Below are positions 19,122 to 61,220 of a DNA stretch of 64,000 nucleotides, in pieces (position 1 is the first letter of the stretch; each line of letters starts with the position of its first letter). Source of the DNA: a virus. Made by a program: the position numbers and the translations under genes. Where the stretch lies: IMG/VR virus record IMGVR_UViG_3300009034_000014, positions 1 to 64,000 of that record; one strand, written 5' to 3'. Under the pieces are notes generated by a model that ran no database searches, had not been told where the DNA came from, and saw only the letters and a program-made list of their open reading frames with translations.

Positions 19122-19321
19122 CACACCGCGCCGCAACGAGGGCATTCCCAGCCCTCATCTGTGGAGAGCCACAGCTCCCCGCAATACGCACATGTGCCAT
19201 CTGCGGGGACCACTGTCCATCGCCCCCCACACGGACAGTGCATCTCTTGTAGACCGGGAGAAAACCCGGCATCGATGTCCAAGATCTCGTCACCACATTT
19301 GTCACATCTTGATTTCGCCAT
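19121..19321 (-). CDS. Multi-CxxC zinc-ribbon protein
   Basis: CDKC, CPC, CAYC, CPRC. Confidence 0.65.
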   Translation of the reverse strand: MAKSRCDKCGDEILDIDAGFSPGLQEMHCPCGGRWTVVPADGTCAYCGELWLSTDEGWECPRCGAV

Positions 19322-46576: not shown

Positions 46577-47770
46577 CTAGATGCTGCTGCCGATGTTGAT
46601 CCCCTTGACCAGCGCGGTGTCCTCCTCGAACTCGCAGGCAACCGACGCATGAATGGCGTATTGGTCAAGACGGGCGAAAATTCGGCGGTCACGTTCTATG
46701 GAAATGCTTGTATTTATTGCAGAAATGTAGTTCATATAGTGTGTTAGCACGATCTGCGGGTTCGCCTTGTACGTGACCTTCACGGTCGCACCGGATCCGA
46801 TAGTGCTTCCGCCTGCTCGTGCGATCGTACCTGCGGTGTAGTCCACCACGTAGTCGGTGTCCTCGGTATATGCGTCTTCCGGAGTCGCGCCCAGCGTCGA
46901 AGTCGTCACGACCACGCTGCTAATCGGGCCGTAGCGCAGGGCCGTGGCAGCGGTACCGGTCAGGACCACGTGCTCGACTACCGGCGGCAGGAGGTCCAGC
47001 AGCGGGACTTCCACCAGCGGGATGCCTAGGGGTGCGTGCGGTGCGCCGCCGGCCGTTGCATCGCCGAGCGCGGTCGACCGCGACGCCAGCTTCTCGTAGT
47101 AGAGGCTGGCCAGATCGGGCGAGATGAAAAACCGGAGATCTCGTTTGTTGCGCCGGAACTTCGTCGGCATCTTTCGGACCATTCCGCCGAATACGGAAAT
47201 GCCTATGTTGGCTCCCTGCGCGTCGAACGAGTTCCCGCCGTCGGCCAGACGGAACCAGCCGTCGAACAGCGCCATGAGCGAGTCTTTGCGGTACCTGGTG
47301 GCGTCTGCGCCGCCTGGGTAGTTGCTTTCGAGGATGGCGTGTCCGTTGGTATCGCCGTTGATGTAGAGTTCCTCCCAGTTGTTGGCGAAGGCCTTGGCCA
47401 TCATTTTCACCACATGGTCCGCCACATTCTCCTCGATGCTCCGCTCCTTGAAGAGATCGCCGATCTCGAAGGGCACCATAACCGCCTTGGGGGTCAGAGT
47501 GACCTTGGAAGTCGTGACGCCGATCCTTACGCCCGGATCCGTCGCTTCCGTGAACGGGACCATGACGCGTGCGCCGACTCCGATCTTGTCGATGTCCAGT
47601 GCTTCGTTCCGGAAGCGCTCGATTCTCGCGTTGTTCTTCAGGATCGTCTCGTCCACCACGTAGTCGATGAATCGGTCGGCCTGCTTGGGGTTCAGCTTCC
47701 CAGACGTTGCAAGGGTGTCCAGCAGGATCGCTGCCTTGCGCAACAGTTCTTCGTTTGAAATACCGCCCAT
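46577..47770 (-). CDS. Major capsid protein (HK97 fold) with inserted beta domain
   Basis: G.LNP.QADRFI, IDKIGVG.R, E..YINGD, DGW, MP.KF. Confidence 0.92.
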   Translation of the reverse strand: MGGISNEELLRKAAILLDTLATSGKLNPKQADRFIDYVVDETILKNNARIERFRNEALDIDKIGVGARVMVPFTEATDPGVRIGVTTSKVTLTPKAVMVPFEIGDLFKERSIEENVADHVVKMMAKAFANNWEELYINGDTNGHAILESNYPGGADATRYRKDSLMALFDGWFRLADGGNSFDAQGANIGISVFGGMVRKMPTKFRRNKRDLRFFISPDLASLYYEKLASRSTALGDATAGGAPHAPLGIPLVEVPLLDLLPPVVEHVVLTGTAATALRYGPISSVVVTTSTLGATPEDAYTEDTDYVVDYTAGTIARAGGSTIGSGATVKVTYKANPQIVLTHYMNYISAINTSISIERDRRIFARLDQYAIHASVACEFEEDTALVKGINIGSSI

Positions 47771-47833: not shown

Positions 47834-49021
47834 TCAGATCACGCCGCCCCAGAACCCATCCTCCTCCTTCTTCTCAACTCGTGCGGCTGCGGTGCCGTCT
47901 TCGATACCTGATCCAGCCTTCCGCTCCTTCACCACTTCTTCTAGTTGCTTGGTCACATCGGCGAGCTGCTTGCGCAGCTCCTCGACTTCGGGTTCCAGCT
48001 CCGACTTCTGGGCACCAACGGCCTGGACCCCTTGGGCTGCGGGCTCTGCCGCACCCGTGAGCGCCTTCAGCGCATCACCGAGCGCCTTTCTGGTATCCTC
48101 GTCTCCGACTTCGCCCAGCAGCTTGATCATCTGCAGAGCCGTGTCCTTGATCGCGCCGATTCTTGAAGCGGTGAACTTCTTCCCCTTGCTCACGGCCTGG
48201 CCCTTGACGATCACGCTCCCATCATCCATGACTTGTACCGCGGGGATCTCCGCATCCGCGCCCGGATCAGCCACATCGTCAGACTTCTTGGCAGGCGCTG
48301 GATACCCGCCAGCGCCACCGGCAGCGCCCGGCTTCGGGTACGGATATTGACCGCCCACGACTTTGTTCAGGAAGGACACGACGCGCTTGATCGCCGACGC
48401 GAGATCTGCGGGCACGGCCTTCGCGACCTCGTCCTTTTCCGCTTCCGGGATCGGAAGCTTGCCGTTGGCGGCCTTGGCCATGAACTCCGCGACGCTCTTG
48501 ATCGCCTTCTCCAACTCCTCGGTCAGCGCCTTCTTCGCCTCCTCTTCCGTCGGGATGTCCTCGGCCTTGCCAACCGGCTTCGGGTACGGGTATTTTCCTC
48601 CGACCACCTTGCCCAGGAAAGTCAGAACCCGCGCGATGGCCGGACCGGGCGCGCCCTTCATGCGCGAAAGGCGCTTCATCCACGCCGATACATCGCGGAT
48701 CGCCTTGGCCAGATCGGCTGGTAGCGCTTTTGTGATCTCCTCGTTGTCCGACTCCCAGAACGATCCTGGATCGCCCTCGGTTTCGGGCAGTGCCTTTTCG
48801 ACTTCGGCGATGCCCTCGAAGATAGGCTTGAAGTCTCCGCCATCCTCGTTCTTCAGCAGTGCGTCCACTTCCGCTTGAAATGCGCCCATTTCTTCCTCCT
48901 TGAGTCGTTTGATGATCAGAAATTTACGGAGGTTCGCTGCGCGATCTACCAGCGATACCTCCCGAACGTCTACGTCGAGAATCCTGCGTGGGTTGTCCTT
49001 ATCGTTTTCCGTCTCGCCCAT
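47834..49021 (-). CDS. Scaffold protein carrying the EVSLVDRAAN protease segment
   Basis: N-terminal DVREVSLVDRAAN; internal repeats ending YPYPKP; coiled coil; C-terminal FWGGVI. Confidence 0.75.
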   Translation of the reverse strand: MGETENDKDNPRRILDVDVREVSLVDRAANLRKFLIIKRLKEEEMGAFQAEVDALLKNEDGGDFKPIFEGIAEVEKALPETEGDPGSFWESDNEEITKALPADLAKAIRDVSAWMKRLSRMKGAPGPAIARVLTFLGKVVGGKYPYPKPVGKAEDIPTEEEAKKALTEELEKAIKSVAEFMAKAANGKLPIPEAEKDEVAKAVPADLASAIKRVVSFLNKVVGGQYPYPKPGAAGGAGGYPAPAKKSDDVADPGADAEIPAVQVMDDGSVIVKGQAVSKGKKFTASRIGAIKDTALQMIKLLGEVGDEDTRKALGDALKALTGAAEPAAQGVQAVGAQKSELEPEVEELRKQLADVTKQLEEVVKERKAGSGIEDGTAAARVEKKEEDGFWGGVI

Positions 49022-49045
49022 CCGACTAACTCCCCTTTGGAACGC

Positions 49046-49076
49046 AAAAACCCCGGACGGCTTATGCCATCCGGGG
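49046..49076 (-). terminator. Intrinsic terminator between polyprotein B and the scaffold gene
   Basis: CCCCGGAUGGC-AUAA-GCCGUCCGGGG-UUUUU. Confidence 0.7.
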
Positions 49077-49112
49077 TCCGGTTTTCTCCGATACCTCGTT
49101 TTTTTGAGTCGT

Positions 49113-49343
49113 CTACTTGTTGCCTAACTCGCTCCCCAGCTCTTCTAGCCGCGTCCAACCGCGACTCTCGTTGACGTAGACGACTTTGCCTGCTTCAAAT
49201 TTCAAAGTAACCTGACCGAAAAAACCACGCTGCTTCAGGCTCTCAAAGTACAAACCTAGAAGATTGCATTGGGTCTTTCCGTTCTCATGCCTCAATTGTG
49301 ACAAACTGTTGTTCTTGCTGTCAAGAGATTTATTTTTGTTCAT
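49113..49343 (-). CDS. Small DUF2292/YezD-like protein (start uncertain)
   Basis: FFGQVTLKFEAGKVVYV motif. Confidence 0.55.
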   Translation of the reverse strand: MNKNKSLDSKNNSLSQLRHENGKTQCNLLGLYFESLKQRGFFGQVTLKFEAGKVVYVNESRGWTRLEELGSELGNK

Positions 49344-52300
49344 ATTACGGTTGCCACTCCCTGAATAGAAAATCCGGTGATTTCCCCCTTCTTCACCTTC
49401 TTCCATAGCGTGTCGTCGTTAATCTTGTTCGACATGAGCCACGTACCCTTTGTCACCTTCTGATCGCCGAGTTTGAAACTCGTTTTTGCTATCCAGGACT
49501 CGACCAACTCCACGCCTATCTCTCCGAACATCGTGTGCAGCACCCCGAGCTGAGTCTCGCGGTTGTAGCTCGCCAGAAACTTGTGTGCTGCGCGCTCGAT
49601 GGCCTCAGCATCGATTGTATCGCCCTGCGCGTCCACCTCGTCCGGTTCTAGGACTATGCCGGTGACGATTCGCTTTTCCTTGTCCACCTTCGCGATCACG
49701 GTCTCGTTGACGAACGCCGCTTTGAATACCTCTGCCATTTCTCCAGCCTCCTTCTTCACCTCCGGACCCGGGACAGAAGGCTGCCACAACCAGTCGCCGT
49801 CCGAGCGCTTAGCCTCGTACAAGCCTTTCAGTAGCTCGCCCTTGATCTGCACCTTCAGAAACTTGTCGCTGTAGGACAGGACCGAGGCTTTTCCGGAATC
49901 CAGGATCTCGATGTTTGAAGGCGTGGCCTTCGTCGGGTTCAGATAGTGACTCGGCTTGATCTCGCCCTCGAATTTCATGCTCTCCTTGTGCGGATCGTCC
50001 TTCACGTCCGCCGCGAGCCGCTTGTTGTCCAGCGGGTTCAAGTACATCTCGACGACGATCAGTTCCGGTCGACCAACATCCAGCCGTAGGTGCCAGAGCG
50101 TTCGGGACGGACCGACGCGGATCTGGATCGGACCTCGCCAGGTCTGCTCTTGAAGCACGAATCGTGCGTCGAGCATGCTGGCCTTCGTGGTTCGCCGCTT
50201 GTACGGCGCGGTGTAGTCGATCTCCACGTCTTTCGCCTTGATCGCCAGTTGCAGCGCGTCACGAGTCTGCTTGGCCTTGGCAGCTGTCTTGCTTTTCCAG
50301 TAGCGGTACTCGACCGGCACCTGCTTGCGGATAGCCTTTGGCAGCGCTGAGATTCCCACCGGAGGCATCCAACCTTTTTTTACGGCGTCGCGGTCGAGCA
50401 CATAGGGAGTCTGATCGTCTGGACGGATACACAGCCAAACAGGTCCAGGCAACTCAGACTCCTCTGAAGGTGGGAGTACCGCTTTACTCAGCACCTCGCC
50501 TTTCAGGTTTTCAGGTAGATCCTCATCGTCTGGAGTGCCGTCTTTCTTCAACCGAAGCTGGCGGAAGAAGATCCGGTAGTTGAGCGCCTTGCCGACCATT
50601 GCATACTCGTGGAGCCAAACTTTTTGAGCCAAGTATTCAGCCTCGCCCTGGTCCACGATCTGGAACACGCCAGGGAACTCTCGCGTCCCTCCCACGGGTG
50701 GCGGCTTGCCCTCCTCAGGCATCTTAGTGGCACCTTCGACATTGAGCCAATCGTACGGCTCCGCTGCCTTCCGAACCGAGTTGATTGAAGTGCGAACTGG
50801 CTCTTTCACACCGCGCTTGCGCCTCTTCGCCCACTCTCCGGTGTTCCAGTTGATCTTGGAAATCTCATCCATGCGCGTTCGGCTCAGCGCCCGAGCCTGC
50901 GATAGCTTGGTGACGGGTTCTTTGATCTCTCCCTTGATGCCGGTGAGCAACGTCCAGCCGATTAGCAGACGCTTCGGTCGCAGTACAATGCGGAGATCCG
51001 AATGCATAGATTTTCCGCGAAAATGATGCTGCACAGAATAGGCATAAGGCGCCTTGTCTTCGTCCGGGATCTCCATGTACGGATCGGCTTGTTTCTCTAC
51101 CGCGCGGGTTGGGAGGTATTCGATGTTCCCTTCTTCGTCGATCTCCTTGACTTGGAGCACGAGGTTGCGCTTCGCGCGTGCCGCAGCCGAATCAACGGTA
51201 TCAGTCTTGTCAGTCCACGGCCCGATCACACGCGGCACCCAGACGGACATGCGCTCGCCCTCTGGCTTGCGCTCGATGTTGATCGTCTCTCCCTCGATCA
51301 GGATGGGATCGCCTTCCGCGAAGTCAAGCTTAGTCGCGAAAGTGTCGCCTACCGGAGTGACTGTCTTCCCCTTCACCTGAACGGTCTTGATCGGCTTCGC
51401 CTTCCCGGGTAGCACGCCATATTGGTAGACCCAGACTCCGCCCTTAGTCTTCTCCCGTCCGAGAACGATCCCGCGCACTATGCTGGAGTTGTGAAATTTG
51501 GTCCAGAGATCGAGCGTCACGACCTTGAGCGGGTATGGGCTGTCCGCCTGCTTCGCGACCACGCCTTCCGACCCTGGCAGCTCGCGGATCTTGCGGACGG
51601 CGCGTTCCAGTTCTTCCAGATCATGGGCCTTGGTTCCTGGTACAGCATTCAGCCTGTGTTTCAGATCCGGAGCACCCATGGTGCTCTGCTCGACTCCCAG
51701 CTTCCCAAGAAGCTCCAGTCTGCGGAACACCGGCCACTTGTGAACGTCGCCGTCCTCGCCGTGGTAGAGCACGTCGAACACGTTGGTCACGACGTTTGAG
51801 TCGTCTGGCTCGTCCTTTGCATGCAGGTAGCCAGCTATCGCCTCGCGCGGGAGGTGCTGGCGTCCCTTCCACAATTCGATCTCACAGTCGAAGACCAACT
51901 TGTCGACCTTGAGTTTTCGGATCTCCTCGACCGTCTGCGGAAGCCTCGCCGTGTTGTCCTCGCCGTCTTCAGAGAAGATCTTGACCGTGTCGCCGTCCTT
52001 GTGGACCTGGTGGCGGGCACCGTCAAATTTTTTCTGGACATGGGTCGGGAGCCATTCATCGGCTCGTTCGCGGTAGAGCGAAAGAAAGCGCTCAATGGTC
52101 TGAAGTTCCTCCGGGAATGCTGGCCGCGTCGGCTTCGGCTGATAGAAGAACTCGCCAAGGGTGAGTTTGTCGTTCTTCTCGGCGCGCTCGGCCTGCACTA
52201 GGAACTTCCCAGTGGGGTCGCGTGACACAAGGGCGACGGACTTCTTCACCGACCGCAGGCTGCTCAGGAAGGCCTTCGCGACGGCTGACGCGAGCGGCAC

Positions 52301-53212
52301 CGGCACGCAGTCGCCGAGCAGCCCCCGGACCCCCGTCCATGTGCTCACGGCGAACTTGTATGAGTCAGGGATGCCCTGGATGCGGGCCGTCTCGCGGAGC
52401 GTGAGCCAGCGCTTCCCACCCCAGTGAATGAACGCGCCCTGCGCGATCAAGGTCGGCGCCGGCTTGTCCGGGCTCCGGATCAGGACGTCGCCCTGATGAA
52501 TGGATGACAGGCGCCCAGCCCGGAGTTCCGCCTCTGGGCTTTTGCCCTCTCGTAGGATCTGGACGAAGAGCTTCAGCCTGTCTGACAGCGGAGGAGGTGC
52601 AGAGTGAAGTCCCTCGCCTCCGGGCGGACCGAGCCCGCTGAGCACGTCACGGACGGAGCGCGGCCGGGAGCGAGGCACCCCGTCCTGCTCTGGTAGCTGA
52701 CCGCCCTTGACCCCAACGAAGAACGCGCGCTGCCTGATCGTCGCGGCACCATGTTCGCTTGCCCTCAGGACCCAGACGGCGGTCTTGTAGCCCAGCCTCT
52801 CAGCGCGCGCCCTAGCCCGCTTCCAGCGCTCTGACTTCACCGCGCCCGGCACGTTCTCAAACACGAAGCCCCGCGCGCCGAGGGCGACCACGAGGTTGAT
52901 CGCATAGTTGATAAGACCCCTCCTAGAGTCGTTCTCCTTCGGGCTGAAGCGGTTGATCGCTGAGAACGGCTCACAGGGCACGCCGCCGACTACGATGTCC
53001 ACGCGCCCGATCGCCTTGCCGATCTCGGGGATGCTGAACTTGCGGCAGTCCCCGAGAAGCACTGCGGCGTCGGGGCGGTTCATTGCGAAAGTGCCCGCGG
53101 CTGGCCTCTCCGATTCAACGCCGAGAACGGAGACGCAGCCCTCCTTCTCGAAGCCGATGGAGAGCGCCCCCATCCCGCAAAAAACGTCCAGCATCCTCAG
53201 TTTTTCTGGCAT
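49340..53212 (-). CDS. Polyprotein B: C5 cytosine MTase + ATP-dependent DNA ligase + two LigD-type 3'-phosphoesterase-like domains + XkdF-like prohead protease
   Basis: FCGMG/GVPC/ENV/RxR; KKFDG, FDCE, FDVL, EGVVAK; QHHFRGKSMHSDLR; VLEPDEVDAQGD...H...GTW...GFSIQG. Confidence 0.88.
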   Translation of the reverse strand: MPEKLRMLDVFCGMGALSIGFEKEGCVSVLGVESERPAAGTFAMNRPDAAVLLGDCRKFSIPEIGKAIGRVDIVVGGVPCEPFSAINRFSPKENDSRRGLINYAINLVVALGARGFVFENVPGAVKSERWKRARARAERLGYKTAVWVLRASEHGAATIRQRAFFVGVKGGQLPEQDGVPRSRPRSVRDVLSGLGPPGGEGLHSAPPPLSDRLKLFVQILREGKSPEAELRAGRLSSIHQGDVLIRSPDKPAPTLIAQGAFIHWGGKRWLTLRETARIQGIPDSYKFAVSTWTGVRGLLGDCVPVPLASAVAKAFLSSLRSVKKSVALVSRDPTGKFLVQAERAEKNDKLTLGEFFYQPKPTRPAFPEELQTIERFLSLYRERADEWLPTHVQKKFDGARHQVHKDGDTVKIFSEDGEDNTARLPQTVEEIRKLKVDKLVFDCEIELWKGRQHLPREAIAGYLHAKDEPDDSNVVTNVFDVLYHGEDGDVHKWPVFRRLELLGKLGVEQSTMGAPDLKHRLNAVPGTKAHDLEELERAVRKIRELPGSEGVVAKQADSPYPLKVVTLDLWTKFHNSSIVRGIVLGREKTKGGVWVYQYGVLPGKAKPIKTVQVKGKTVTPVGDTFATKLDFAEGDPILIEGETINIERKPEGERMSVWVPRVIGPWTDKTDTVDSAAARAKRNLVLQVKEIDEEGNIEYLPTRAVEKQADPYMEIPDEDKAPYAYSVQHHFRGKSMHSDLRIVLRPKRLLIGWTLLTGIKGEIKEPVTKLSQARALSRTRMDEISKINWNTGEWAKRRKRGVKEPVRTSINSVRKAAEPYDWLNVEGATKMPEEGKPPPVGGTREFPGVFQIVDQGEAEYLAQKVWLHEYAMVGKALNYRIFFRQLRLKKDGTPDDEDLPENLKGEVLSKAVLPPSEESELPGPVWLCIRPDDQTPYVLDRDAVKKGWMPPVGISALPKAIRKQVPVEYRYWKSKTAAKAKQTRDALQLAIKAKDVEIDYTAPYKRRTTKASMLDARFVLQEQTWRGPIQIRVGPSRTLWHLRLDVGRPELIVVEMYLNPLDNKRLAADVKDDPHKESMKFEGEIKPSHYLNPTKATPSNIEILDSGKASVLSYSDKFLKVQIKGELLKGLYEAKRSDGDWLWQPSVPGPEVKKEAGEMAEVFKAAFVNETVIAKVDKEKRIVTGIVLEPDEVDAQGDTIDAEAIERAAHKFLASYNRETQLGVLHTMFGEIGVELVESWIAKTSFKLGDQKVTKGTWLMSNKINDDTLWKKVKKGEITGFSIQGVATVI

Positions 53213-53223
53213 GACAAAAGTCC

Positions 53224-53253
53224 TTGACGCCGCGTCTCATGACGCGATAGGTT
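53224..53253 (+). promoter_or_regulatory. Putative vsr promoter with palindromic operator in the spacer
   Basis: TTGACG-18-TAGGTT, 6 nt before the ATG; CGCGTC-TCAT-GACGCG inverted repeat; divergent from the MTase start. Confidence 0.5.
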
Positions 53254-53259
53254 GCGATC

Positions 53260-53688
53260 ATGACCCGTGAGGAGAGATCGAAGCACATGGCAAAGATCAG
53301 GGGCGATGACCTCAGGCCCGAGACGGCGGTCGCCACCGCCTTCCAGAGGCTGCGACGTCGACCAGAACGGAACGTGGCCGACCTGCCTGGCCGCCCTGAC
53401 TTCGTGCTCCGCCGGTCGCGCGTCGCGGTGTTCGTGCACGGCTGCTTCTGGCACGGCTGCCGGGCGCACTACCGGGCACCCAAGTCGAACCGGCCCTTCT
53501 GGCGTCGCAAGCTGAACACGAACCGCCGGCGGGACGCGCGCGTCGAGCGCAGCCTCCGCCGCGCGGGATGGTCCGTGCTCACGGTGTGGGAGCACGACAC
53601 TCGGCAGGGCGTGGGTCACCTGGTCAATCTCCTTTCCTACCGACTCCGCGCCGCTTCAGGAAGGCGCGAAGGTCGTCGACGGACGTGA
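53260..53688 (+). CDS. vsr: Very-short-patch repair endonuclease
   Basis: RSKHMAKIR...PE, LPGRPDF, VFVHGCFWHGC, FW..KL..N..RD, GWSVLTVWEH; adjacent to a C5 MTase. Confidence 0.93.
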   Translation: MTREERSKHMAKIRGDDLRPETAVATAFQRLRRRPERNVADLPGRPDFVLRRSRVAVFVHGCFWHGCRAHYRAPKSNRPFWRRKLNTNRRRDARVERSLRRAGWSVLTVWEHDTRQGVGHLVNLLSYRLRAASGRREGRRRT

Positions 53689-56530
53689 CCACGTTCGGCG
53701 GCAAATCTGCCGCCGCCATCTCCTTCACCTCGTTCTGAGGGTTCACCCGCTCGAAGGTCAGATCGTAGAGCGGCACGTTGTTGGTGAATGGCCCGTGGAA
53801 ATTGTCGAAGTGGATTTCCAACCGCTCTGACAACTCAGGCGGAAGCGCTCGCCCGAGACGGAAGTGCACCACATGCTTGAAGTCCTCTGGCAGTTCCTCG
53901 GTGTCCTTCACAAGGATATCGATGTCCCCTTCCGTAGCGCCGCGGTTCGCGAGTCCGCCTACCAGATAGACGTATGGCTGGCGCAACTTGAACGTCTTGA
54001 AATACGGGAGCACATCGTCCAGCTTGATCTCCGGACCGCGCTTCACTCCAGACGAGTGTATGAAAGCGTAGTCTCGCTTGCTCACCTTCTCCCACGGTGG
54101 GACGTCGTAATCCGGTTGCTTCTCCTCGTGGCGCTCGAAATCCTCTGACACGTCGTCCAGTCCGTCGCCAGGCGGAGGCGGGTGCAGCACCTTTCGCTCG
54201 AACAGCTCGTCTGTGATCAGTGCGTGCAGATTGGAAACGTCCTCTACGCTGAATCCAGCCCGGCGTCGGTCCTCGGCGGGTCCGCGCCAGAGCTTGTGCA
54301 GCCTCCAGTGGGCCTCGGTAAGGTCCGCCGTGGTCATCTCTCCAGCGTCTAGGTCTGGTGCGAGTTCCACGCGCTTGAGCATGACTTCCGGGAGCTTCAC
54401 TTCACGGGCAACGCGTTCCCAGAATTCGCGCACGCTCGGCTTCATGCCCTTGGGGTTGAAGCGAACAACCTCCGGGCCACGGCGAACGGCTTCCTTCAGG
54501 ATCTTGCGCAGCAGCAGTTCAATGGTCTCAAGGTCGTACTTGAAGCCCTTGGGATCTTTCTTCCAGTTGGCGTAGTACGCGAGAGTCAGCCGGTGGTCAT
54601 CGCGGAGCACGGCGTCGGAAACCTTGCTCGCATCGTAGGTCTTCGGGTCGCGGATCTTCTTGGCTTCCTGGACCGTGTAGTTCTGGTAAAGAATCTGCGT
54701 ACTCTCAAGGCCACCAAAGCCCGGCGTAGTGCGGGTAAGTTTGCGCTTAGTCCATCCCGAGCCGAGATCTAGATTGCCTTGGTACGAAAGCAGAACCCGG
54801 CCCTTTAGTTTCTTCACAGCATCAAGGAACTTATCCGCATCAAAATTTTTCCAGTGATCCGTTTTGCTTTCTGCCTTCCATGGCGGATCGAGGTAGAAGA
54901 AAGTTGCCGTCGAATCCAATTTTTTGATTAGTTTTAGCGCATCGCCCTCAACAATTTTCGTATTGCTCAGCCGCTCTCGGAATTTCTCAAGATTGTCGAG
55001 AAACCGCTTGCCGGTTACCGTCTGAGCGCCTGAGAATTCAGTCGCCCGGCCGCGTTGGCTGTGCAGATTAAGATACTTATGGCGAAAGGCACGGGCTCTG
55101 AGAGAGTTTGGCTTCAATTCCAACAAGCGCGCAAATCGTTCAGGACTCCCCCTCCATTCCTGTTGCCGGATCCATTTAAAATCGGCATCGCTACCAGTTT
55201 TCAGGAAACGGTACACAGCAATGATCTCAGGATCGATATCGCAGAGAACTTCCTGCTCCGAGGGCTCTTTTGCCCAAAACAAGGTCGCTCCACCTGCATA
55301 CGGCTCTACATAGACCTTATGCTTCGGTACACGCTTCAATAGGTCATCTGCCCAAGGATCCTTGCCACCAGGGGATCTAAATGGTTTCGCCACCCGCTTC
55401 TCGGTGCCGCGCAGGCCAAGCTCATTGATATCCGAGTGTACGAGTTCGATCTTCTCGATCTTGAACGCGGCATCGAGCACCGGTAACTTATCGATCCTGG
55501 CTCCGACAGGTAAGTAGGCGAGTGTGGCGTGCGGGACGAAGCCGTGTGTCTGGTCCTCGATTTCCGTGAACCCGGCCTTGCTCAGCACCGCCTTGATCTC
55601 GGTGTGCAGTTCTGCGAGCCCAGGTGCGTCTACCAGCGCGACCAGAGCAGTCGCAGCCTCTCCATCCTTGCTTGCGCCGTCGAAGAAGCCCCACCCCTGG
55701 AACTTCGCGTCGATAGGCTTTGCCTTGTCGAGCACCTTCTGCACAGCACTTAGCGCGTCTTCCTTGTCGCTCTCCGAGTACTCGCCTTTGCTCGGCACGT
55801 ATAAAACGGTGATGTGGTCCGCGTCGTCGGCCTCGGCGAAGTCTACGCCCTTCAGTAGCTCGCCGGATAGCTCCATCAACTTCTTCCTGATCTCATCTGG
55901 AAGCCTAGCGCAGAAAAACAGGTGCGTCGGGTCGGTGTGGATCTGTTTCTCTACCGATTTCAGCTCCACATCCCGGGCCAACACCTGCGGACCGGGACCG
56001 ATGTTGGTCTCAGCCGGCGCATCGAACTTGCTTTCCATTTTAACGGGCCAGGCGTAGAACGGTCCTTTCTTCCAGCCCTTCTGCGCCTTGGCCCACTCCG
56101 AACGCAGATCCTCGGAAATGAGATGTTGATCGATTGTGCGCTTCAGCTCGTCCAGATCCACATCCCGCAGCTTGCCAAGAGTCACGACGCCCAATGCCTT
56201 GCGCTCACTGATCAACAAGTAGCGCTTGCCCGCGATCTCAAATGGCCGCGTCTTCACGATCAGGGTCTTGCGGCCATCCAGCACGGCCTCGGCCATCCAC
56301 GCCGGCGACACGATCAACCCGTCGGTCGGTAGCTCCGCCTCGCCGCTGTAGTCCTCGATGCGCGGCAGTCTTGGTTCCTTCTCGTCAAGTGGGATCCCGC
56401 TCTCTCCAAACCCGGCTGGGTAGAGTTTACCACCGTCCTCCAGTTCTGGAAGACCGATTGCTTTTCTGACCGGAGTGCTTTGCTCGCCCTTTGGAACCAT
56501 ACTGCATGGTGGTCTTTTACGTGGCATCAT
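53624..56530 (-). CDS. Polyprotein A: ASCH-like + 2H phosphoesterase + Dam/D12-type adenine MTase + helical domains + Pol-beta-like nucleotidyltransferase
   Basis: AEAVLDGRKT; HITV/HATL; PGGK, EPYAGG, FYLDPPW; YLVGGLA..G...GDIDIL. Start at ATG 56530 after a GGGAG RBS. Confidence 0.85.
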   Translation of the reverse strand: MMPRKRPPCSMVPKGEQSTPVRKAIGLPELEDGGKLYPAGFGESGIPLDEKEPRLPRIEDYSGEAELPTDGLIVSPAWMAEAVLDGRKTLIVKTRPFEIAGKRYLLISERKALGVVTLGKLRDVDLDELKRTIDQHLISEDLRSEWAKAQKGWKKGPFYAWPVKMESKFDAPAETNIGPGPQVLARDVELKSVEKQIHTDPTHLFFCARLPDEIRKKLMELSGELLKGVDFAEADDADHITVLYVPSKGEYSESDKEDALSAVQKVLDKAKPIDAKFQGWGFFDGASKDGEAATALVALVDAPGLAELHTEIKAVLSKAGFTEIEDQTHGFVPHATLAYLPVGARIDKLPVLDAAFKIEKIELVHSDINELGLRGTEKRVAKPFRSPGGKDPWADDLLKRVPKHKVYVEPYAGGATLFWAKEPSEQEVLCDIDPEIIAVYRFLKTGSDADFKWIRQQEWRGSPERFARLLELKPNSLRARAFRHKYLNLHSQRGRATEFSGAQTVTGKRFLDNLEKFRERLSNTKIVEGDALKLIKKLDSTATFFYLDPPWKAESKTDHWKNFDADKFLDAVKKLKGRVLLSYQGNLDLGSGWTKRKLTRTTPGFGGLESTQILYQNYTVQEAKKIRDPKTYDASKVSDAVLRDDHRLTLAYYANWKKDPKGFKYDLETIELLLRKILKEAVRRGPEVVRFNPKGMKPSVREFWERVAREVKLPEVMLKRVELAPDLDAGEMTTADLTEAHWRLHKLWRGPAEDRRRAGFSVEDVSNLHALITDELFERKVLHPPPPGDGLDDVSEDFERHEEKQPDYDVPPWEKVSKRDYAFIHSSGVKRGPEIKLDDVLPYFKTFKLRQPYVYLVGGLANRGATEGDIDILVKDTEELPEDFKHVVHFRLGRALPPELSERLEIHFDNFHGPFTNNVPLYDLTFERVNPQNEVKEMAAADLPPNVVTSVDDLRAFLKRRGVGRKGD

Positions 56531-57588
56531 ATCTCCCAGGAGCCCGCCTCGACCGAGACGTCGACAGTGCAACGTCAGCGGAAATGGTAACTCGGCAAAG
56601 CCACGCCAGCGCCTGCCAGCGCCGCTGACTCCTTCATAGGTCCGCGTCCCTTGGTCGGCGATAGCGATCTCAACCAGCCGAGTCTTTCCTTTGATTCTCC
56701 AATGAACGGGTGCGCACGCTTTACGCCCTCTGGTGATCGCGCTCTGAGTTCCCGTTGCATCACGCCCATCCCTTGCTCGACCGTGAACACTTTTCCATCC
56801 ATATGCGAGCAGATCTGACACGTCCTAGCGTCCATCACGGCTGAAATCTCGTATCGCACCGCACCGTAATCCGCCATGCTCCTGATCTGCCCGAACGCCC
56901 TCGCAGTCGTCGCAGCATTCGCAGCCACGCCCTCGAAGTACTGCGCAGCCGACCCGTGCCAGCCTCCGGGAGTGGAGAACACGCCGAGCGATTCAGTAAG
57001 ACGTTCCCTAATTAGCGAACCAGCGAGTCGGCGATCCGTCCCCGCTTCAACCATGGTCTCCTTCGCTGTGTTCGCTATTGTGCTACCTATGTTCTCGTCG
57101 TAGTGTTCACCGATCCAGAAAGTCTGGTGATCGGCGAGTGTGGCTGCCGCCTCTTCGTCCACGAGATCAAAAGCGGGCATGACCTCGGAGAATACCGGCT
57201 CTGCCTTGGCCACCTCCGCTTGTAGGTTGGCCGTCGAGTACGCCAGTGGTGCGCGGGTGTGCTTGGTGGCCTTCTTCCACCCCGCGATGCGCGCTAATCG
57301 GTAGATCTTTTGCTGCGTCTCGATGTGACGGGGCAAGACTTCTTTCGCCCATTTATCCATCTCGCGCTCGACGGCCTTGGCGATCACCGAAGCGGGCTTC
57401 AGTTGTGCGGCGAGTGCGGTAGCTTGCTTGACGGCCTTGCGGGAGTGCGCGTTCCACTTGGCCAGCAGGTAGCGTCTGAGTTGAGTTTCGAGCCGGGCGA
57501 TGCGTGCGACTTCGGATAGCCGAAGGGCTTTGGTCAGCAGGTCATCGACGGCCATGACTCCGTCGTAGTATGTGTCCAGCGCAGTCAT
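56527..57588 (-). CDS. MuF/SPP1-gp7-like minor head protein with in-frame UGA at 56577-56575
   Basis: D.RTCQIC...DGK and P.YHFR*RCT. Reading through gives a stop at 56529-56527 that overlaps the next start. Confidence 0.85.
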
Positions 57589-57906: not shown

Positions 57907-59694
57907 TCAGCCTTCCTCGGTCGCTTCCTCAACCTCTTTCCGCCAGCGCTCCTCCATCTCGTCGCGCATCTTCATCAGCCGTTCCACAAGCTCCTCATCG
58001 CTGGCTCCGCGATCGAATAGCGGGATGTCGGCGCTGGTCAACTTCTCTATAACCTCAAGAGCTTTCAGCGCAGTTACAGTTTGTCCCGGCTCAGATGCGT
58101 CACCTAAGTTTTTCACACGTTCTGCCATGGTCAGGCTGAATGGCACGTCCTGCGGGAAATCATCCGGGAATGGTGGGAGCTCAATACCGAAGATGTCCTC
58201 TAGAGCTTTGCGTGCGATCCTTGGCGTCATGCCTCCGGTTTTCTCCGCACCGGCCAGAATGCGTACCAGCTCCGTGTTGTCCGTGGTGTTCGGGCTGTTG
58301 CTCTTGAATAAGTGGTAGCGCACGTCCATTGCCGGAAAGATCCTCCGATTAATTAACCTATCGAACTCGTCTCGCTCGGGTGCGAAGACCTGTTCATCGG
58401 CCAACCTCCGTGATACTTCAGCCGTAGCGCGATTGAAAGTTTCCATTGCTCCGAGGAATAGTTGCGAAAGCCTGAATGCCCGCCGGATCTTCTCGCGGTT
58501 GTTCTTGCTGTACTCCTGGAACAAGGCGTCCTTAATCTGAGCCTGTGTGAGCGGCTTCGCTTCGAGCTTCACCTGGCCAGGCTGCTCGCCATCTGTATCT
58601 GGAGATTCGGCCTCGACCACGATGAACTTAGAATAATTATCCGATCCCTGAACATGGCTCTGGGCGAAATCAGTGAGTCGATCTATGCTCGCCTGCGTCA
58701 ACTGCCCACCTGAGACTAGGACAAACATGCTCGGCATATTGTTGTTCCGAATCGTCACGAAGTTAATTTCCTCCCCAGCGCGATCTCCGAAGATGGAAAG
58801 AAGATTCCCGATGGTATGCGGTAGCCCGTAGGGGCTGCGCGGGGAGTAGAGCTTCAGGTGAACTACCTCGTTCGCTCGGCGATCTTCAGGAATCGGTGTT
58901 TTGCCGCTTACCAGCTTGCCTGTCTCGTCCTGTATCAGCTCGCCGTTCTCGTTGTCGTAGATCCGGGGATCCCCGAATTCCTTGAACCAGCGCGTCTCCA
59001 GGCTTCCGGTAACAGAGAGGTTGCGCCGCGTAGTTAGCCGCGTCTGCACAAAGCGCCGGAAGCGCTTCCAGGTTGGAACGGTCTCGATATCCACAGCGCC
59101 GTTGCCGAGGATGCGGTAGATTGGGATCCTGACCTTTATGGGATCTCGATCTTCCGGGCTAAGGTGCATCTGGTAGCTCGGGAGGTGGTTGAATGCCTGG
59201 ATCTTGCCCGCTACGTTCCGTATGATCTCGAACTCCGCGTTGCCAGTGGTTTCGAGATCTACGCGTAGCTTCCTTCGGAACATGACGAAAGAGTCGTCAC
59301 CGGCCGCGTACAGAAAGAAGTTCTCCAACTCAAGCCGTTCCTTCTCGATCTTCTTGGCAAGATCCTTGGCATCGCTGATCTGCTCCGGCTTCAGGCGCGA
59401 CACCAGACGGTGACCGAAGCCCTCGATATTCACTTCCATGGCGGAGATACACGGTCCTAGCTCCGTGTTCGTCTCCAGGAGCATGGCGAGCTGTAGCAAG
59501 TCGAAAGGCGGCTCTACGATCTGCCCGGCGTCTATCAGCGACTCGATGTAGTCCTCGGGCAACTCCTTGGTCTTGCCCGGCTCGGTTTCTCGTTCCTGCT
59601 TCACCATCGGGATCACCAGGGCGCGGATCTTCGTTAGATTCTGCTCCGCGCTCTCGTTCACGAACTCTCGAACTTGCGCTTTGGATTCAGTCAT
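57907..59694 (-). CDS. Portal protein
   Basis: DLETTGNA, NEVVH, SPYGLP, N..P, IR.AF.L. Confidence 0.9.
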   Translation of the reverse strand: MTESKAQVREFVNESAEQNLTKIRALVIPMVKQERETEPGKTKELPEDYIESLIDAGQIVEPPFDLLQLAMLLETNTELGPCISAMEVNIEGFGHRLVSRLKPEQISDAKDLAKKIEKERLELENFFLYAAGDDSFVMFRRKLRVDLETTGNAEFEIIRNVAGKIQAFNHLPSYQMHLSPEDRDPIKVRIPIYRILGNGAVDIETVPTWKRFRRFVQTRLTTRRNLSVTGSLETRWFKEFGDPRIYDNENGELIQDETGKLVSGKTPIPEDRRANEVVHLKLYSPRSPYGLPHTIGNLLSIFGDRAGEEINFVTIRNNNMPSMFVLVSGGQLTQASIDRLTDFAQSHVQGSDNYSKFIVVEAESPDTDGEQPGQVKLEAKPLTQAQIKDALFQEYSKNNREKIRRAFRLSQLFLGAMETFNRATAEVSRRLADEQVFAPERDEFDRLINRRIFPAMDVRYHLFKSNSPNTTDNTELVRILAGAEKTGGMTPRIARKALEDIFGIELPPFPDDFPQDVPFSLTMAERVKNLGDASEPGQTVTALKALEVIEKLTSADIPLFDRGASDEELVERLMKMRDEMEERWRKEVEEATEEG

Positions 59695-59738: not shown

Positions 59739-61220
59739 TCATATCAAGCCGGGTTCTGTCTCGCGAACTTTTTTTCTTCTTCCCTTCTTCTTTCTTGCCC
59801 GGTTGGCCAAGTCAAATGCGTCAAGCCCGTCCCGGTAACGGTAGCCAGGAAACAAGACGAACTGGTCGATCAGTGGATCCATGTTCTTACGGAAGAAAAC
59901 GCGCTTCTCATCGAACAACGGCGTGAGCTTCAGAGCGCGTGTCATCTTGTCCTTGTCGGTGTGGATCGGCACGAAACGGTAGTCCTTGTCCAAGTGCTTC
60001 ACCTGCTGGTAGAACGCCTTCTGGTACGCGTTGGACTCCACGCCGGCGCGTATAGGATCGTGCTTCTCGTACATCTTGATCCCGCGTTCTATTTGCTTCG
60101 GGAATCCGATGTGCTTTAGGTAGTAGTCCAGTACGTAGATGTTCCCGGCCTTGTCCTCGCCGATAGTCACGTTCGCGTACTGCGCGTTGTCCCGTTGGTC
60201 TGTCTCGCTCACGGCCAGATCGTTGCCCTGGAAAATCATCAGGTCGTCTGGTATCTGGGAATCATCGATCTGCTGGCAATCGTCATAGTGGAATACCTCG
60301 CCCTTCATTGCGTCGGTGTCGTTTTGATATTGGGAGTTGAATACGATCAAGCCAGACTTCCGACGCTTTTCATCAAACCATGTAGGTGGATGTTTCTCCG
60401 GCCACGGAGATCTTCCCTTCGCGTCAAGTCCTAGAATAATCTGATGGTGAACAGCCAGTTCATTGCAGATCAGATGTCCATACAGATCGTCGTAGTGGTA
60501 GCGCGTGCCGAGTCGATGGTGCTCACCTCGATGAGGAACGCTTGGGTCTGGAGGCTCCAGACAGGGATCTAGCGTCTTATAGTACCAGGTCCGAACTTTG
60601 TCCCGCATGTACTTCGTGCGACTATTCTCATCGTCCACCAGATCGTCAGATATAATTACGTCGTAGTGCTTGGAAACGATGGTGCCGTCGACGCCCGCGC
60701 AGGTGATGGAAGCTTCTTTCGCCGCGATCGTACGCGGGACGACCTCTATTTCCGATTCGTCCCACTTCGCGACCTTCTGCGGATTATAGTATTCGCCGAA
60801 GACTTCCAGCAGCCGCTTGTTGTTCTCGAAGTGAGCCTTCACCTCCTTGAGAAAACCCTTGCTGTTAGTCGTGGTCTTGCTCGCGAAAAGAATTCTCAGA
60901 TTGGGATTTTTCAAAAGGTAGTGAATTGTTTTCGCGATCGTGCAAGTGGTGGTTTTTCCAGAGCCACGATACGAAAGTTGCAGGCTGTCTGGGTGCCTGA
61001 ACTGGAACTTCTGCATCGCGAGGTGGAAGGGCTGCACCTCGTAGCCCAGCACCTCGGTGGACAGCAGATCTATCCGGTTGTGATCGACGATCGCCCGGCG
61101 TAGGACCTCATTACCTATCGAACGGTAGTGCTGGTAGATCTCGACTAGCTGTTCCCGGTCTGCATTCTGGAGAGCAGCCGGATCCCCGGAGATCAGCGGA
61201 GCGGCGGATTCCGATACCAC
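59739..61220 (-). CDS. terL: Terminase large subunit
   Basis: RGSGKTT, IISDDLVD, GTRYH..DLYG, QYQN, VESNAYQ, DK..RA, DGLDA. Confidence 0.93.
   Translation of the reverse strand: MVSESAAPLISGDPAALQNADREQLVEIYQHYRSIGNEVLRRAIVDHNRIDLLSTEVLGYEVQPFHLAMQKFQFRHPDSLQLSYRGSGKTTTCTIAKTIHYLLKNPNLRILFASKTTTNSKGFLKEVKAHFENNKRLLEVFGEYYNPQKVAKWDESEIEVVPRTIAAKEASITCAGVDGTIVSKHYDVIISDDLVDDENSRTKYMRDKVRTWYYKTLDPCLEPPDPSVPHRGEHHRLGTRYHYDDLYGHLICNELAVHHQIILGLDAKGRSPWPEKHPPTWFDEKRRKSGLIVFNSQYQNDTDAMKGEVFHYDDCQQIDDSQIPDDLMIFQGNDLAVSETDQRDNAQYANVTIGEDKAGNIYVLDYYLKHIGFPKQIERGIKMYEKHDPIRAGVESNAYQKAFYQQVKHLDKDYRFVPIHTDKDKMTRALKLTPLFDEKRVFFRKNMDPLIDQFVLFPGYRYRDGLDAFDLANRARKKKGRRKKVRETEPGLI

What the first reader, a model, noticed from the sequence alone, without database searches (positions are those of the whole stretch)
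49340..56530. Head-module polyproteins: candidate protease-processed, capsid-packaged DNA-protection and repair toolkit
Seen: between MuF and scaffold, where a small prohead protease normally sits, are 968-aa and 1290-aa ORFs. They string together ASCH-like (~55960-56325), 2H phosphoesterase (~55410-55925), adenine MTase (~54680-55390), nucleotidyltransferase (~53730-54060), C5 MTase (~52260-53212), ATP-dependent ligase (~51100-52170), two LigD-PE-like domains (~50560-51050, ~49780-50170) and an XkdF-like protease (~49340-49700). Known: polyvalent proteins and MuF fusions deliver enzymes with phage DNA. Inference: these enzymes are loaded into the prohead, cut apart, and act on packaged or freshly injected DNA against restriction, nuclease breaks and nucleotide-signal defences.
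Basis: partly seen in the sequence, partly recalled or inferred. Interest (0 to 1): 0.85.

Follow-up and report, generated by a model that had tools for sequence, protein, structure and literature searches.

The report
Phage head polyproteins carrying DNA-repair enzymes
An uncultured tailed virus has fused its capsid-maturation protease to a chain of DNA-methylating, DNA-end-cleaning and DNA-sealing enzymes, which suggests that it packs a DNA repair and protection kit into the virus head.

Summary
Two ORFs of 968 and 1290 aa lie between the MuF gene and the scaffold and capsid genes of an 83-kb IMG/VR virus record. Profile searches support eight of the nine claimed domains. The nucleotidyltransferase rests only on an invariant GG..DxD..D motif. 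It belongs to a GC-rich vsr-dcm cassette that splits what is one ORF of 1873 aa in an 80%-identical relative. The same split layout occurs in a complete 91.6-kb relative.

The XkdF domain is the only prohead protease found in the record. It is the last domain wherever it occurs. Relatives of the ligase-PE-PE core turned up on 114 viral contigs. In five of five sampled lineages without XkdF, a different head protease gene follows directly.

The best reading is a polyvalent-protein-type capsid cargo with a LigD-like end-repair core (confidence 0.55). Packaging, cleavage and injection are inferred, not shown. An EKQ tripeptide enriched at domain junctions is a candidate cleavage mark.

The general concept is published (PMC5512222); the ligase/PE cargo is not in the text I read. 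Novelty: new variant of a known kind. Earlier notes of this scan cover the same genome only.

The parts
53624..56530 (-). Polyprotein A (968 aa from the ATG at 56530): N-terminal leader, ASCH-like, 2H, Dam, helical A4a, NTase-like A4b, and a short tail read from the cassette
55946..56350 (-). ASCH-like (PUA-like) domain, A residues 61-195
   Evidence: Family profile A5 hits PDB 1wk2/2dp9 at E 1e-8. Pfam ASCH reaches only E 0.08-0.18.
55433..55900 (-). 2H phosphoesterase (LigT-like). Both HxT motifs (HIT, HAT) are visible in the translation.
   Evidence: Pfam PF13563 E 2e-11 and PF02834 E 2e-4; sequence
54812..55372 (-). D12-class N6-adenine DNA methyltransferase (EPYAGG and DPPW motifs)
   Evidence: Pfam PF02086 E 2e-16; PDB Dam hits at 5e-6
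54071..54664 (-). A4a: conserved helical module with no known relative
   Evidence: Alignment A4; no PDB or Pfam hit; 17 stand-alone homologues, 16 without any Pfam family
53711..54070 (-). A4b: Pol-beta-type nucleotidyltransferase-like module (G858, D869, D871, D909)
   Evidence: Motif invariant in 12 of 12 sequences; no profile support; weak Atlas lead
53260..53688 (+). vsr (very-short-patch-repair endonuclease). It is divergent from dcm and overlaps the 3' end of polyprotein A in antisense.
   Evidence: Pfam PF03852 E 1.7e-19; 61%-identical Vsr at the same place in G001
52225..53713 (.). GC-rich vsr-dcm cassette (GC 0.665 against 0.57 in the flanks). It replaces the A4b|ligase junction of the undivided relatives.
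49340..53212 (-). Polyprotein B (1290 aa): Dcm, ligase, PE1, conserved segment, PE2, XkdF
52226..53212 (-). C5 cytosine DNA methyltransferase (FCGMG, PCEPFS and ENV motifs)
   Evidence: Pfam PF00145 E 6.6e-39; PDB hits at 1e-21
51113..52225 (-). ATP-dependent DNA ligase, adenylation domain plus a probable OB domain (KFDG motif I)
   Evidence: Pfam PF01068 E 2.7e-22 and 1.4e-23; archaeal ligase PDB hits 3gde and 3rr5
50513..51112 (-). PE1: LigD-type 3'-phosphoesterase fold with H730, R732, H737, D739 and R741 invariant, and an insert of about 55 aa
50183..50512 (-). Strongly conserved segment of unknown function. It holds W[MI]PPxGxSALP, one of the two patterns the scan picked from alignment A1.
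49709..50182 (-). PE2: second PE-fold domain that lacks the His/His/Asp metal site in the window
49343..49708 (-). XkdF-type (Peptidase_S78_2) prohead protease domain, at the extreme C-terminus
   Evidence: Pfam 111 bits against a cut-off of 24; phrog_3017 head maturation protease; only protease family found in the record
55943..55951 (-). EKQ junction motif (VEKQ, A194-196) at the ASCH|2H boundary
54116..54124 (-). EKQ motif (EEKQ, A803-805) at the A4a|A4b boundary
51089..51097 (-). EKQ motif (VEKQ, B706-708) at the ligase|PE1 boundary
56575..57588 (-). MuF-like minor head protein, directly upstream
   Evidence: Pfam E 2.6e-4, below the cut-off; PHROG minor head protein families
47834..49021 (-). 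Scaffold-like protein, directly downstream
   Evidence: Conserved position in relatives; its N-terminus hits phrog_3017 positions 2-48
46577..47770 (-). Major capsid protein candidate
   Evidence: phrog_1623 E 1.2e-63

Best explanation
The two ORFs are the halves of a head-module 'polyvalent' cargo polyprotein. Its C-terminal XkdF domain is the virus's own prohead protease.

Proposed mechanism:
1. The polyprotein is made late, together with portal, MuF, scaffold and capsid protein.
2. The protease end takes it into the assembling prohead (inferred).
3. The activated protease cuts the chain at inter-domain junctions, some of them marked h-E-K-Q (inferred).
4. The freed enzymes stay with the packaged DNA and enter the next cell with it (inferred).

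The conserved core resembles a LigD-like end-healing and sealing unit. It consists of an NTase-like module, an ATP-dependent DNA ligase, an active PE domain and a degenerate PE domain. The NTase-like module stands in for LigD's primase-type polymerase.

Accessory modules are swapped between lineages: Dam, Dcm (here with its partner Vsr), 2H and ASCH-like in the window; UDG and InPase in relatives. The likely job is to seal or tidy nicks and ends, and to methylate the genome, before or without new viral gene expression.

Shown: the domain identities, the fusion to the only protease, the position, the conservation and the modular shuffling. Inferred: packaging, cleavage, injection and the substrates.
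For: - Domains.
- One ORF in close relatives: P0004 (1873 aa, 80% identity) is collinear with A plus B minus Dcm.
- Only protease: XkdF is found once in the 83-kb record, and S78, ClpP, S49 and S77 give no match.
- XkdF is a head protease in the same slot in cultured viruses: PaP1, RHph_I4, PhiCh1 and Colwellia 9A, 4 of 4 inspected.
- Position of XkdF: it lies within 25 aa of the C-terminus in 147 of 173 pooled XkdF-bearing proteins, 143 of them with more than 250 aa in front. It is the last domain in 31 of 31 XkdF-bearing blocks among the 80 3'-complete blocks at 86 loci.
- Head-module position: 44 of 63 loci with visible upstream DNA show a portal, MuF or TerL homologue. 37 of 75 with visible downstream DNA show a scaffold or MCP homologue.
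- Lineages without XkdF: in 5 of 5 sampled loci the next ORF is another head maturation protease family, followed by the major head protein.
- Breadth: 114 viral contigs encode relatives of the PE-PE region.
- Junction motif: 27 of 49 EKQ tripeptides fall in linker windows that make up 7,864 of 86,657 residues, at many different boundary types.
- Published framework: polyvalent proteins carry an assemblin-like peptidase always at the C-terminus (PMC5512222, section 8).
Against: - There is no experimental evidence of any kind. No cultured relative with a cargo-XkdF fusion was found among the four I inspected, so no virion proteome applies.
- EKQ is absent from the linker windows of 49 of 69 non-redundant polyproteins.
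- EKQ is enriched in lineages with XkdF and in those without it.
- EKQ is absent from the window's scaffold, capsid, MuF and portal proteins. It may therefore not be the protease's recognition site.
- 49 of 80 3'-complete blocks lack XkdF.
- Polyprotein A is not covalently joined to a protease in this genome, so its route into the head has no explanation.
- A cargo of about 130 kDa per protease copy would take much capsid space.
- The NTase call is motif-only.
- No Ku or Gam was found, but the record is only 83% complete.
- The window sequence itself does not reach Pfam LigD_N.
Confidence: 0.55

Rival explanations
1. A late-expressed enzyme polyprotein that works in the producing cell, not in the next host. 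The enzymes methylate progeny DNA and seal nicks or trim ends in it just before or during packaging. Fusion to the protease and placement in the head operon would only give timing, stoichiometry and release by proteolysis. Nothing is injected.
For: The same positional and fusion data fit this reading. Dam, Dcm and Vsr are maintenance functions for resident DNA. Polyprotein A has no protease of its own and is separated from B by an antisense gene in two genomes, which shows that covalent linkage to XkdF is dispensable for half of the enzymes.
Against: From recall, not from a call: prohead proteases are normally inactive until concentrated inside the procapsid. The C-terminal placement of XkdF in 147 of 173 proteins, with cargo always N-terminal, looks like a delivery arrangement rather than mere co-expression. 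The published reading of such architectures is virion packaging (PMC5512222).
Confidence: 0.25
2. The cargo is mainly an RNA or nucleotide-signal countermeasure. 2H, ASCH-like, NTase-like, PE and ligase would heal and reseal tRNAs or other RNAs cut by host anticodon nucleases, or degrade cyclic or 2'-5' nucleotide signals. DNA would not be the main substrate.
For: 2H and ASCH-type domains are commonly linked to RNA. PMC5512222 section 20 (passages) proposes that 2H domains of polyvalent proteins act as RNases or degrade 2'-5' oligoadenylate-like signals. From recall: archaeal PE homologues have 2',3'-cyclic phosphodiesterase activity.
Against: The ligase belongs to PF01068, and its best PDB matches are archaeal and eukaryotic DNA ligases. 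No polynucleotide kinase domain was detected. The commonest companions are DNA methyltransferases and, in 12 of 87 hits, uracil-DNA glycosylase. 2H and ASCH are accessory and absent from many relatives, whereas ligase-PE-PE is the core.
Confidence: 0.12
3. Chance accretion or artefact: the long ORFs come from mis-assembly, or from neutral gene fusions and mobile-cassette insertions with no joint function.
For: A mobile GC-rich vsr-dcm cassette has indeed inserted here. Homing endonuclease or intein families occur in four relatives' polyproteins.
Against: The same architectures recur on many independent contigs from different samples at 30-80% identity. The split layout is kept in a complete relative at about 55% identity. 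Catalytic motifs are intact.
Confidence: 0.03

Closest known systems
Polyvalent proteins of phages and conjugative elements (Iyer, Burroughs, Anand, de Souza, Aravind 2017, PMC5512222; section 8 read in full, other passages)
   Same: Many enzymatic domains sit in one polypeptide. The genes are encoded next to MuF and portal. Domains are shuffled between relatives. DNA methyltransferases, 2H, Pol-beta NTase, InPase and PRTase are among the domains. An assemblin-like peptidase is found only at the C-terminus. The published prediction is packaging in the head and release with the DNA.
   Different: In the text I could search, the paper has no 'DNA ligase', 'LigD' or 'ASCH'. The conserved core here, NTase-like/ligase/PE/PE, is therefore a cargo type not described there. 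Its full architecture tables are in supplementary or FTP files that I could not see. The dominant peptidase there is a zincin-like metallopeptidase, not XkdF.
Bacterial LigD (NHEJ ligase: ligase + 3'-phosphoesterase + primase-polymerase, working with Ku)
   Same: An ATP-dependent ligase domain is fused to a PE domain that keeps the His..His-x-Asp-x-Arg site. A nucleotidyl-transferring module may be attached.
   Different: There is no AEP polymerase domain. A Pol-beta-like motif module stands in its place, supported by motif only. There are two tandem PE domains, the second degenerate. No Ku or Gam is in the record. The unit is embedded in a head-module polyprotein. The window does not reach Pfam LigD_N.
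XkdF-type prohead proteases (Pfam PF14550; PBSX XkdF, PhiCh1 gpB, Pakpunavirus gp048-type)
   Same: Same domain, same slot between portal/MuF and scaffold/capsid genes.
   Different: In the four cultured viruses inspected, the protease stands alone (134-199 aa) or is followed by a scaffold part (PhiCh1 gpB, 628 aa). Here about 1,170 aa of enzymes precede it. The product name 'DNA methyltransferase' on the small proteins of PaP1 and Colwellia 9A has no methyltransferase-sized protein behind it.
T4 internal proteins and Alt, and the P1 Dar proteins (capsid-targeted, protease-trimmed, injected anti-defence proteins) - recalled, no call
   Same: The proposed logic is the same: enzymes are loaded into the prohead, trimmed by the head protease, and delivered with the DNA to protect it.
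   Different: Those are separate small genes with targeting peptides. They are not one polyprotein fused to the protease, and none is a ligase or phosphoesterase.
ANMV-1 virus 'ATP-dependent DNA ligase' AJP62006 (KP703175)
   Same: It matches B residues 360-1151 (ligase-PE1-PE2) at 29% identity. The large terminase is also among the nearest GenBank matches.
   Different: It has no XkdF, and in that record the gene does not lie between portal and capsid genes.

Membership tests
Polyvalent proteins (PMC5512222) | Several unrelated catalytic domains in one polypeptide of a phage or plasmid | tested here: met
   A has at least 4 and B at least 5 recognisable domains.
Polyvalent proteins (PMC5512222) | Gene neighbourhood with MuF and portal / virion head genes | tested here: met
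   Window. Relatives: 44 of 63 loci with visible upstream DNA and 37 of 75 with visible downstream DNA.
Polyvalent proteins (PMC5512222) | Domain shuffling between relatives | tested here: met
   Module order and content differ widely among hits.
Polyvalent proteins (PMC5512222) | Packaged in the virion and delivered with the DNA | not testable with these tools
   The virus is uncultured, and no proteome or run was available (one search listed none).
XkdF / Peptidase_S78_2 prohead protease | Match to PF14550 above the curated cut-off | tested here: met
   111.2 bits against a cut-off of 24, covering 4-124 of 126 positions; 116.8 bits in the genome search.
XkdF / Peptidase_S78_2 prohead protease | Sits in the head module and is the phage's head protease | tested here: met
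   The position is met. No other protease family is in the record, though the record is 83% complete.
XkdF / Peptidase_S78_2 prohead protease | Proteolytic activity on head proteins | not testable with these tools
   Only the conserved GFSI(G/Q)G and H-containing motifs are seen.
LigD (NHEJ ligase) | ATP-dependent ligase domain | tested here: met
   PF01068 E 2.7e-22; KxDG motif present.
LigD (NHEJ ligase) | 3'-phosphoesterase domain with its metal-binding His/His/Asp and Arg | tested here: met
   PE1: family profile to 3p4h/3p43 at E 1.3e-3 and 7.3e-3, with H730, H737, D739 and R741 invariant in 32 of 32 sequences. Which residues are catalytic is recalled. The window alone does not reach Pfam LigD_N.
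LigD (NHEJ ligase) | AEP-type polymerase domain | tested here: not met
   No such Pfam family appears on A or B.
LigD (NHEJ ligase) | Ku partner | tested here: not met
   PF02735 and PF07352 give no match in the 83-kb record. The record is 83% complete.
Pol-beta-fold nucleotidyltransferase | hG[GS] ... [DE]h[DE]h ... third carboxylate | tested here: met
   G858, D869, D871 and D909 are invariant in 12 of 12 sequences. The pattern itself is recalled.
Pol-beta-fold nucleotidyltransferase | Significant profile or fold match to a known NTase | tested here: not met
   No hit in Pfam, in PDB, or with PF01909 in 5 relatives. The Atlas score of 0.84 is only a lead.
ASCH / PUA-like | Profile match to an ASCH-fold protein | tested here: inconclusive
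   Family profile to 1wk2/2dp9 at E 1e-8. Pfam ASCH is matched by only 2 of 26 members, best E 0.078. That TTHA0113 has an ASCH fold is recalled.
Dcm-Vsr pair | C5 methyltransferase next to a Vsr endonuclease | tested here: met
   PF00145 E 6.6e-39 and PF03852 E 1.7e-19. The genes are divergent and 47 bp apart.

The most novel reading that the evidence does not exclude
A LigD-like DNA end-healing and sealing kit rides inside the capsid of a large, uncultured group of tailed viruses. The kit would be an NTase-like module, an ATP-dependent ligase and a 3'-phosphoesterase, joined in some lineages by uracil-DNA glycosylase or methyltransferases. The group may include archaeal viruses. The kit is released by the head protease at EKQ-type junctions. 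It repairs or circularises the incoming genome before any viral gene is expressed, possibly using pre-adenylated ligase and so needing no ATP. Virion-borne genome repair would then be a general strategy for viruses that persist for long periods in sediments.
Probability: 0.3. Interest if true: 0.8.

Novelty: new variant of a known kind. Interest (0 to 1): 0.6.

Why it matters
If the cargo is truly packaged, it would be the first case I know of (recall plus the searches) of a phage carrying a DNA ligase and a LigD-type phosphoesterase in its head.

It would extend injected anti-defence proteins to injected genome repair. It would also give a natural system for loading large enzymes into capsids through fusion to the prohead protease.

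The family is large: 114 viral contigs with relatives in one scan. It is modular and comes with a concrete, testable junction motif. It also explains why small XkdF proteases of cultured phages are widely mislabelled 'DNA methyltransferase'.

Tried and rejected
I used family profiles against PDB sequences instead.

I used the search for related loci instead.

NTase claim. All of these came back empty: Pfam on the segment, Pfam on 12 family members, the PDB profile, and PF01909 in five relatives' records. Of 17 stand-alone homologues, 16 carry no Pfam family. The claim stays motif-level.

Pfam LigD_N on the window: no hit. The PE assignment rests on family profiles.

Ku and Gam: none found.

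Near-identical DNA in GenBank phages: none found.

Sequencing runs: none was listed, and no RNA holder was listed.

Host domain. Pfam on ten other large ORFs gave SNF2 helicase, DUF2201 metallopeptidase with VWA, MoxR-type AAA, YqaJ and an SbcC-like ATPase. Nothing there decides between a bacterial and an archaeal host. Shine-Dalgarno-like sites and a hairpin followed by a T-run are present.

Cultured phages with a 'DNA methyltransferase' label under XkdF hits. I considered that they might be cargo fusions with proteomes, and rejected this. PaP1 gp048 is 156 aa, Colwellia 9A COPG_00069 is 134 aa and RHph_I4 gp060 is 199 aa.

EKQ as a strict cleavage code: rejected as stated. It occurs in the linker windows of only 20 of 69 polyproteins, and not in the scaffold or capsid protein.

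Literature. One search was uninformative because the terms were too broad. No paper held LigD + phosphoesterase + phage + capsid + packaged.

Full report
WHAT IS THERE

The window is the first 64 kb of a single 83,438-bp IMG/VR virus record. The record is linear and CheckV estimates it at 83% complete.

On the minus strand the head module runs in this order:
- large terminase, 59739-61220;
- portal, 57907-59694;
- MuF-like protein, 56575-57588;
- polyprotein A, 53624-56530;
- polyprotein B, 49340-53212;
- a 76-aa ORF;
- a scaffold-like protein, 47834-49021;
- a capsid protein, 46577-47770.

An ATG at 56530 has GGGAG just upstream and lies 42 nt after the MuF stop. The longer GTG frame would overlap MuF.

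DOMAINS

Pfam confirms five domains directly:
- C5 methyltransferase, E 6.6e-39;
- ATP-dependent ligase, E 2.7e-22;
- XkdF protease, E 4.2e-32;
- D12 adenine methyltransferase, E 2e-16;
- 2H phosphoesterase, E 2e-11.

The translations show the expected catalytic motifs:
- FCGMG, PCEPFS and ENV in Dcm;
- EPYAGG and DPPW in Dam;
- two HxT motifs in 2H;
- KFDG in the ligase;
- GFSIQG in XkdF.

The other four claims needed family profiles, which I built from homologous segments of related viral loci.

- ASCH-like. The 26-sequence profile hits the PDB chains 1wk2/2dp9 (TTHA0113) at E 1e-8 over almost their full length. Pfam ASCH stays below threshold.
- PE2. The profile hits the archaeal LigD-phosphoesterase homologues 3p43 (E 1.2e-7) and 3p4h (E 5e-6).
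- PE1. The profile hits the same two chains more weakly (E 1.3e-3 and 7.3e-3), but with the active-site stretch aligned. H730, R732, H737, D739 and R741 are invariant in 32 of 32 sequences.
- PE1 against PE2. They are homologous to each other (hhalign 93%, E 2.9e-7). PE1 carries an insert of about 55 residues, and PE2 lacks the His/His/Asp pattern.
- Nucleotidyltransferase. This is the one claim I could not confirm. G858, D869, D871 and D909 are invariant in 12 of 12 aligned sequences. No profile search supports it, and the Atlas gave only a weak lead.

Two parts remain without any relative:
- the helical module A4a;
- a very conserved segment of about 110 aa between PE1 and PE2. It holds the W[MI]PPxGxSALP motif, one of the two patterns that the scan picked from alignment A1.

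WHAT THE FINDING TEXT LEFT OUT

A vsr gene (Pfam E 1.7e-19) lies on the plus strand at 53260-53688. It starts 47 bp from the dcm start and overlaps the last 65 nt of A in antisense.

The stretch 52225-53713 has GC 0.665, against 0.57 on both sides.

In the closest relative, P0004 (1873 aa, 80% identity), A and the ligase-to-XkdF part of B form one continuous ORF. The junction there reads ...NEVKLMRDETTEKQEARAASPALRTQAERAEK.... In the window the middle of that junction is replaced by the tail of A, vsr and dcm. The dcm gene is joined in frame to ...QAERAEK...

So a vsr-dcm cassette sits at the A4b|ligase junction.

The insertion is not a fresh accident. A complete 91.6-kb relative with terminal repeats (G001) has the same layout of A-like ORF, antisense vsr and dcm-led B. 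Its Vsr is 61% identical and its polyprotein about 55% identical. Another lineage carries Dcm as an internal in-frame module (L030).

HOW WIDESPREAD, AND WHERE

A search with B found 87 other proteins. By my count of that table:
- 79 of 87 list XkdF;
- 12 list uracil-DNA glycosylase;
- 10 list Dcm;
- 4 list homing-endonuclease or intein families.
Others carry InPase, PRTase, a metallo-beta-lactamase fold, PALP or AdoMet decarboxylase.

Module order differs from protein to protein.

Two scans of IMG/VR gave 15 and then 114 relatives, of which 80 were kept. I mapped modules on all ORFs of these loci with jackhmmer seeded from the window. At 86 distinct loci:
- 44 of 63 with visible upstream DNA have a portal, MuF or terminase homologue upstream;
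- 37 of 75 with visible downstream DNA have a scaffold or capsid homologue downstream. The rest may have unrelated head proteins;
- 31 of 80 3'-complete blocks contain XkdF, and in all 31 it is the last domain.

I sampled five loci without XkdF. In all five the next ORF is a head maturation protease of another PHROG family, followed by the major head protein.

The ligase-PE-PE unit, usually preceded by A4a/A4b, is therefore a constant neighbour of the head protease, whichever protease that is. In one lineage it is fused to the protease.

A survey of longer proteins that contain the XkdF domain, pooled with the earlier hits, gave 173 proteins with the domain:
- 147 have XkdF within 25 aa of the C-terminus, 143 of them with more than 250 aa in front;
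- 22 have it at the N-terminus followed by 270-340 aa, the protease-scaffold type;
- 4 have it elsewhere.

IS XkdF THE HEAD PROTEASE?

It is the only match among five prohead protease families searched in the whole record. The record is 83% complete, which limits this.

In four cultured viruses I inspected, the XkdF gene sits in the same slot:
- PaP1, 156 aa;
- RHph_I4, 199 aa;
- Colwellia 9A, 134 aa;
- PhiCh1 gpB, 628 aa, annotated prohead protease.

None of these is fused to cargo. The product name 'DNA methyltransferase' on the small proteins of PaP1 and 9A therefore has no methyltransferase-sized protein behind it.

JUNCTIONS

In 69 non-redundant polyproteins, linker windows make up 7,864 of 86,657 residues but hold 27 of 49 EKQ tripeptides.

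The motif, usually with a hydrophobic residue before it, precedes different modules and follows different ones. Boundary types include ligase|PE1, A4b|ligase, PE1|PE2, A4a|PE1, Dam|ligase and Dcm|PE1.

In the window it marks three boundaries:
- ASCH|2H (A194-196);
- A4a|A4b (A803-805);
- ligase|PE1 (B706-708).
A TEKR sits at the 2H|Dam boundary.

Results against reading it as the XkdF site:
- 49 of 69 proteins have no EKQ in a linker window;
- the enrichment holds with XkdF (9 of 19) and without it (18 of 30);
- the window's MuF, portal, scaffold and capsid proteins have none;
- related sequences inflate the statistics.

I treat it as a candidate junction mark.

MECHANISM

The most economical reading is the published polyvalent-protein model (PMC5512222; section 8 read in full, other passages). 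Enzymes are made with the head proteins, enter the prohead, are cut by an embedded peptidase, and travel with the DNA. [quoted passage not shown]

What is new here is the cargo. The text of that paper has no DNA ligase, LigD or ASCH.

The core looks like LigD with its polymerase replaced by another module: a possible NTase, a ligase, an active PE and a degenerate PE. The uracil-DNA glycosylase in some relatives and the Dcm-Vsr pair here also point to care of DNA.

I therefore favour sealing and cleaning of nicks or ends, plus methylation of the virus's own genome, either in the head or on entry. Everything after 'the protease domain must reach the prohead' is inference.

The main rival is that the enzymes act in the producing cell on DNA about to be packaged. 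An RNA-repair or signal-degrading role for 2H and ASCH cannot be excluded.

HOST

Unknown.
- P0007 is deposited under a Thorarchaeota MAG.
- The ANMV-1 virus shares the ligase-PE-PE unit and a distant terminase.
- A preprint on Asgard viruses mentions a 'ligD' with a zinc-finger domain in the Nidhogg viruses (10.1101/2021.07.29.454249, passages). I did not test whether it is related.
- The window itself shows Shine-Dalgarno-like sites and a hairpin followed by a T-run.

NOVELTY AND SCORE

The kind is known: polyvalent head cargo with a C-terminal head protease. The variant is not in the texts I could search. That variant is a LigD-like ligase/phosphoesterase core, conserved next to or fused with the prohead protease on more than a hundred viral contigs. 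Supplementary tables could not be opened.

Interest 0.6: a well-supported, testable extension of a known idea, with no experimental anchor yet.

Noticed in passing
window 49113-49343 (-) and 49040-49100: A 76-aa ORF starts with an ATG that overlaps the TGA stop of polyprotein B (ATGA). It has no PHROG match. A hairpin with a T-run follows it, just before the scaffold gene. A sigma-70-like TTGACA-18-CACAAT site lies at 49324-49295.
   Followed up: partly
window 47834-49021 (-): Residues 11-60 of the scaffold-like protein hit positions 2-48 of phrog_3017 (head maturation protease, E 2.4e-7). The XkdF domain of B hits positions 41-154 of the same profile. The scaffold also holds two long internal repeats (KA[LV]PADLA...VVGG.YPYPKP).
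   Followed up: partly
window 50183-50512 (-): A segment of about 110 aa between PE1 and PE2 carries W[MI]PPxGxSALP, one of the two patterns the scan picked from alignment A1. It has no PDB or Pfam relative.
   Followed up: partly
L056 713-3244 and 3254-6154; L032 1870-4659: In relatives the terminase (843 aa) and portal (929-966 aa) are split by inserts of about 300-360 aa. Several polyproteins list LAGLIDADG or intein families (P0029, P0033, P0036, P0053). Inteins seem common in this virus group.
   Followed up: no
L004 5821-7863, L006 5595-8315, L018 1878-5747, L033 2-3649: The MuF gene of relatives is extended to 680-1289 aa, against 337 aa in the window. This suggests a second, MuF-borne cargo series in the same head modules.
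   Followed up: no
L096 (PaP1 gp048), L100 (Colwellia 9A COPG_00069), L097 (RHph_I4 gp060): Small stand-alone XkdF proteases of cultured phages carry the product name 'DNA methyltransferase'. No methyltransferase-sized protein stands behind that name.
   Followed up: yes
window 13338-15757 and 16965-19145 (-): Three other large genes: a DUF2201 metallopeptidase with a VWA domain, a MoxR-type AAA ATPase next to it, and a 726-aa SNF2-family helicase.
   Followed up: no
L095 (record G007, 156,062 bp): A distant relative of the ligase-PE block lies in a record that IMG/VR classes as a provirus. Its flanks could name a host.
   Followed up: no
P0007; L001 (ANMV-1): One close homologue is deposited under a Thorarchaeota MAG. 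The archaeal virus ANMV-1 shares the ligase-PE-PE unit and a distant terminase. Some members of the group may infect archaea.
   Followed up: partly
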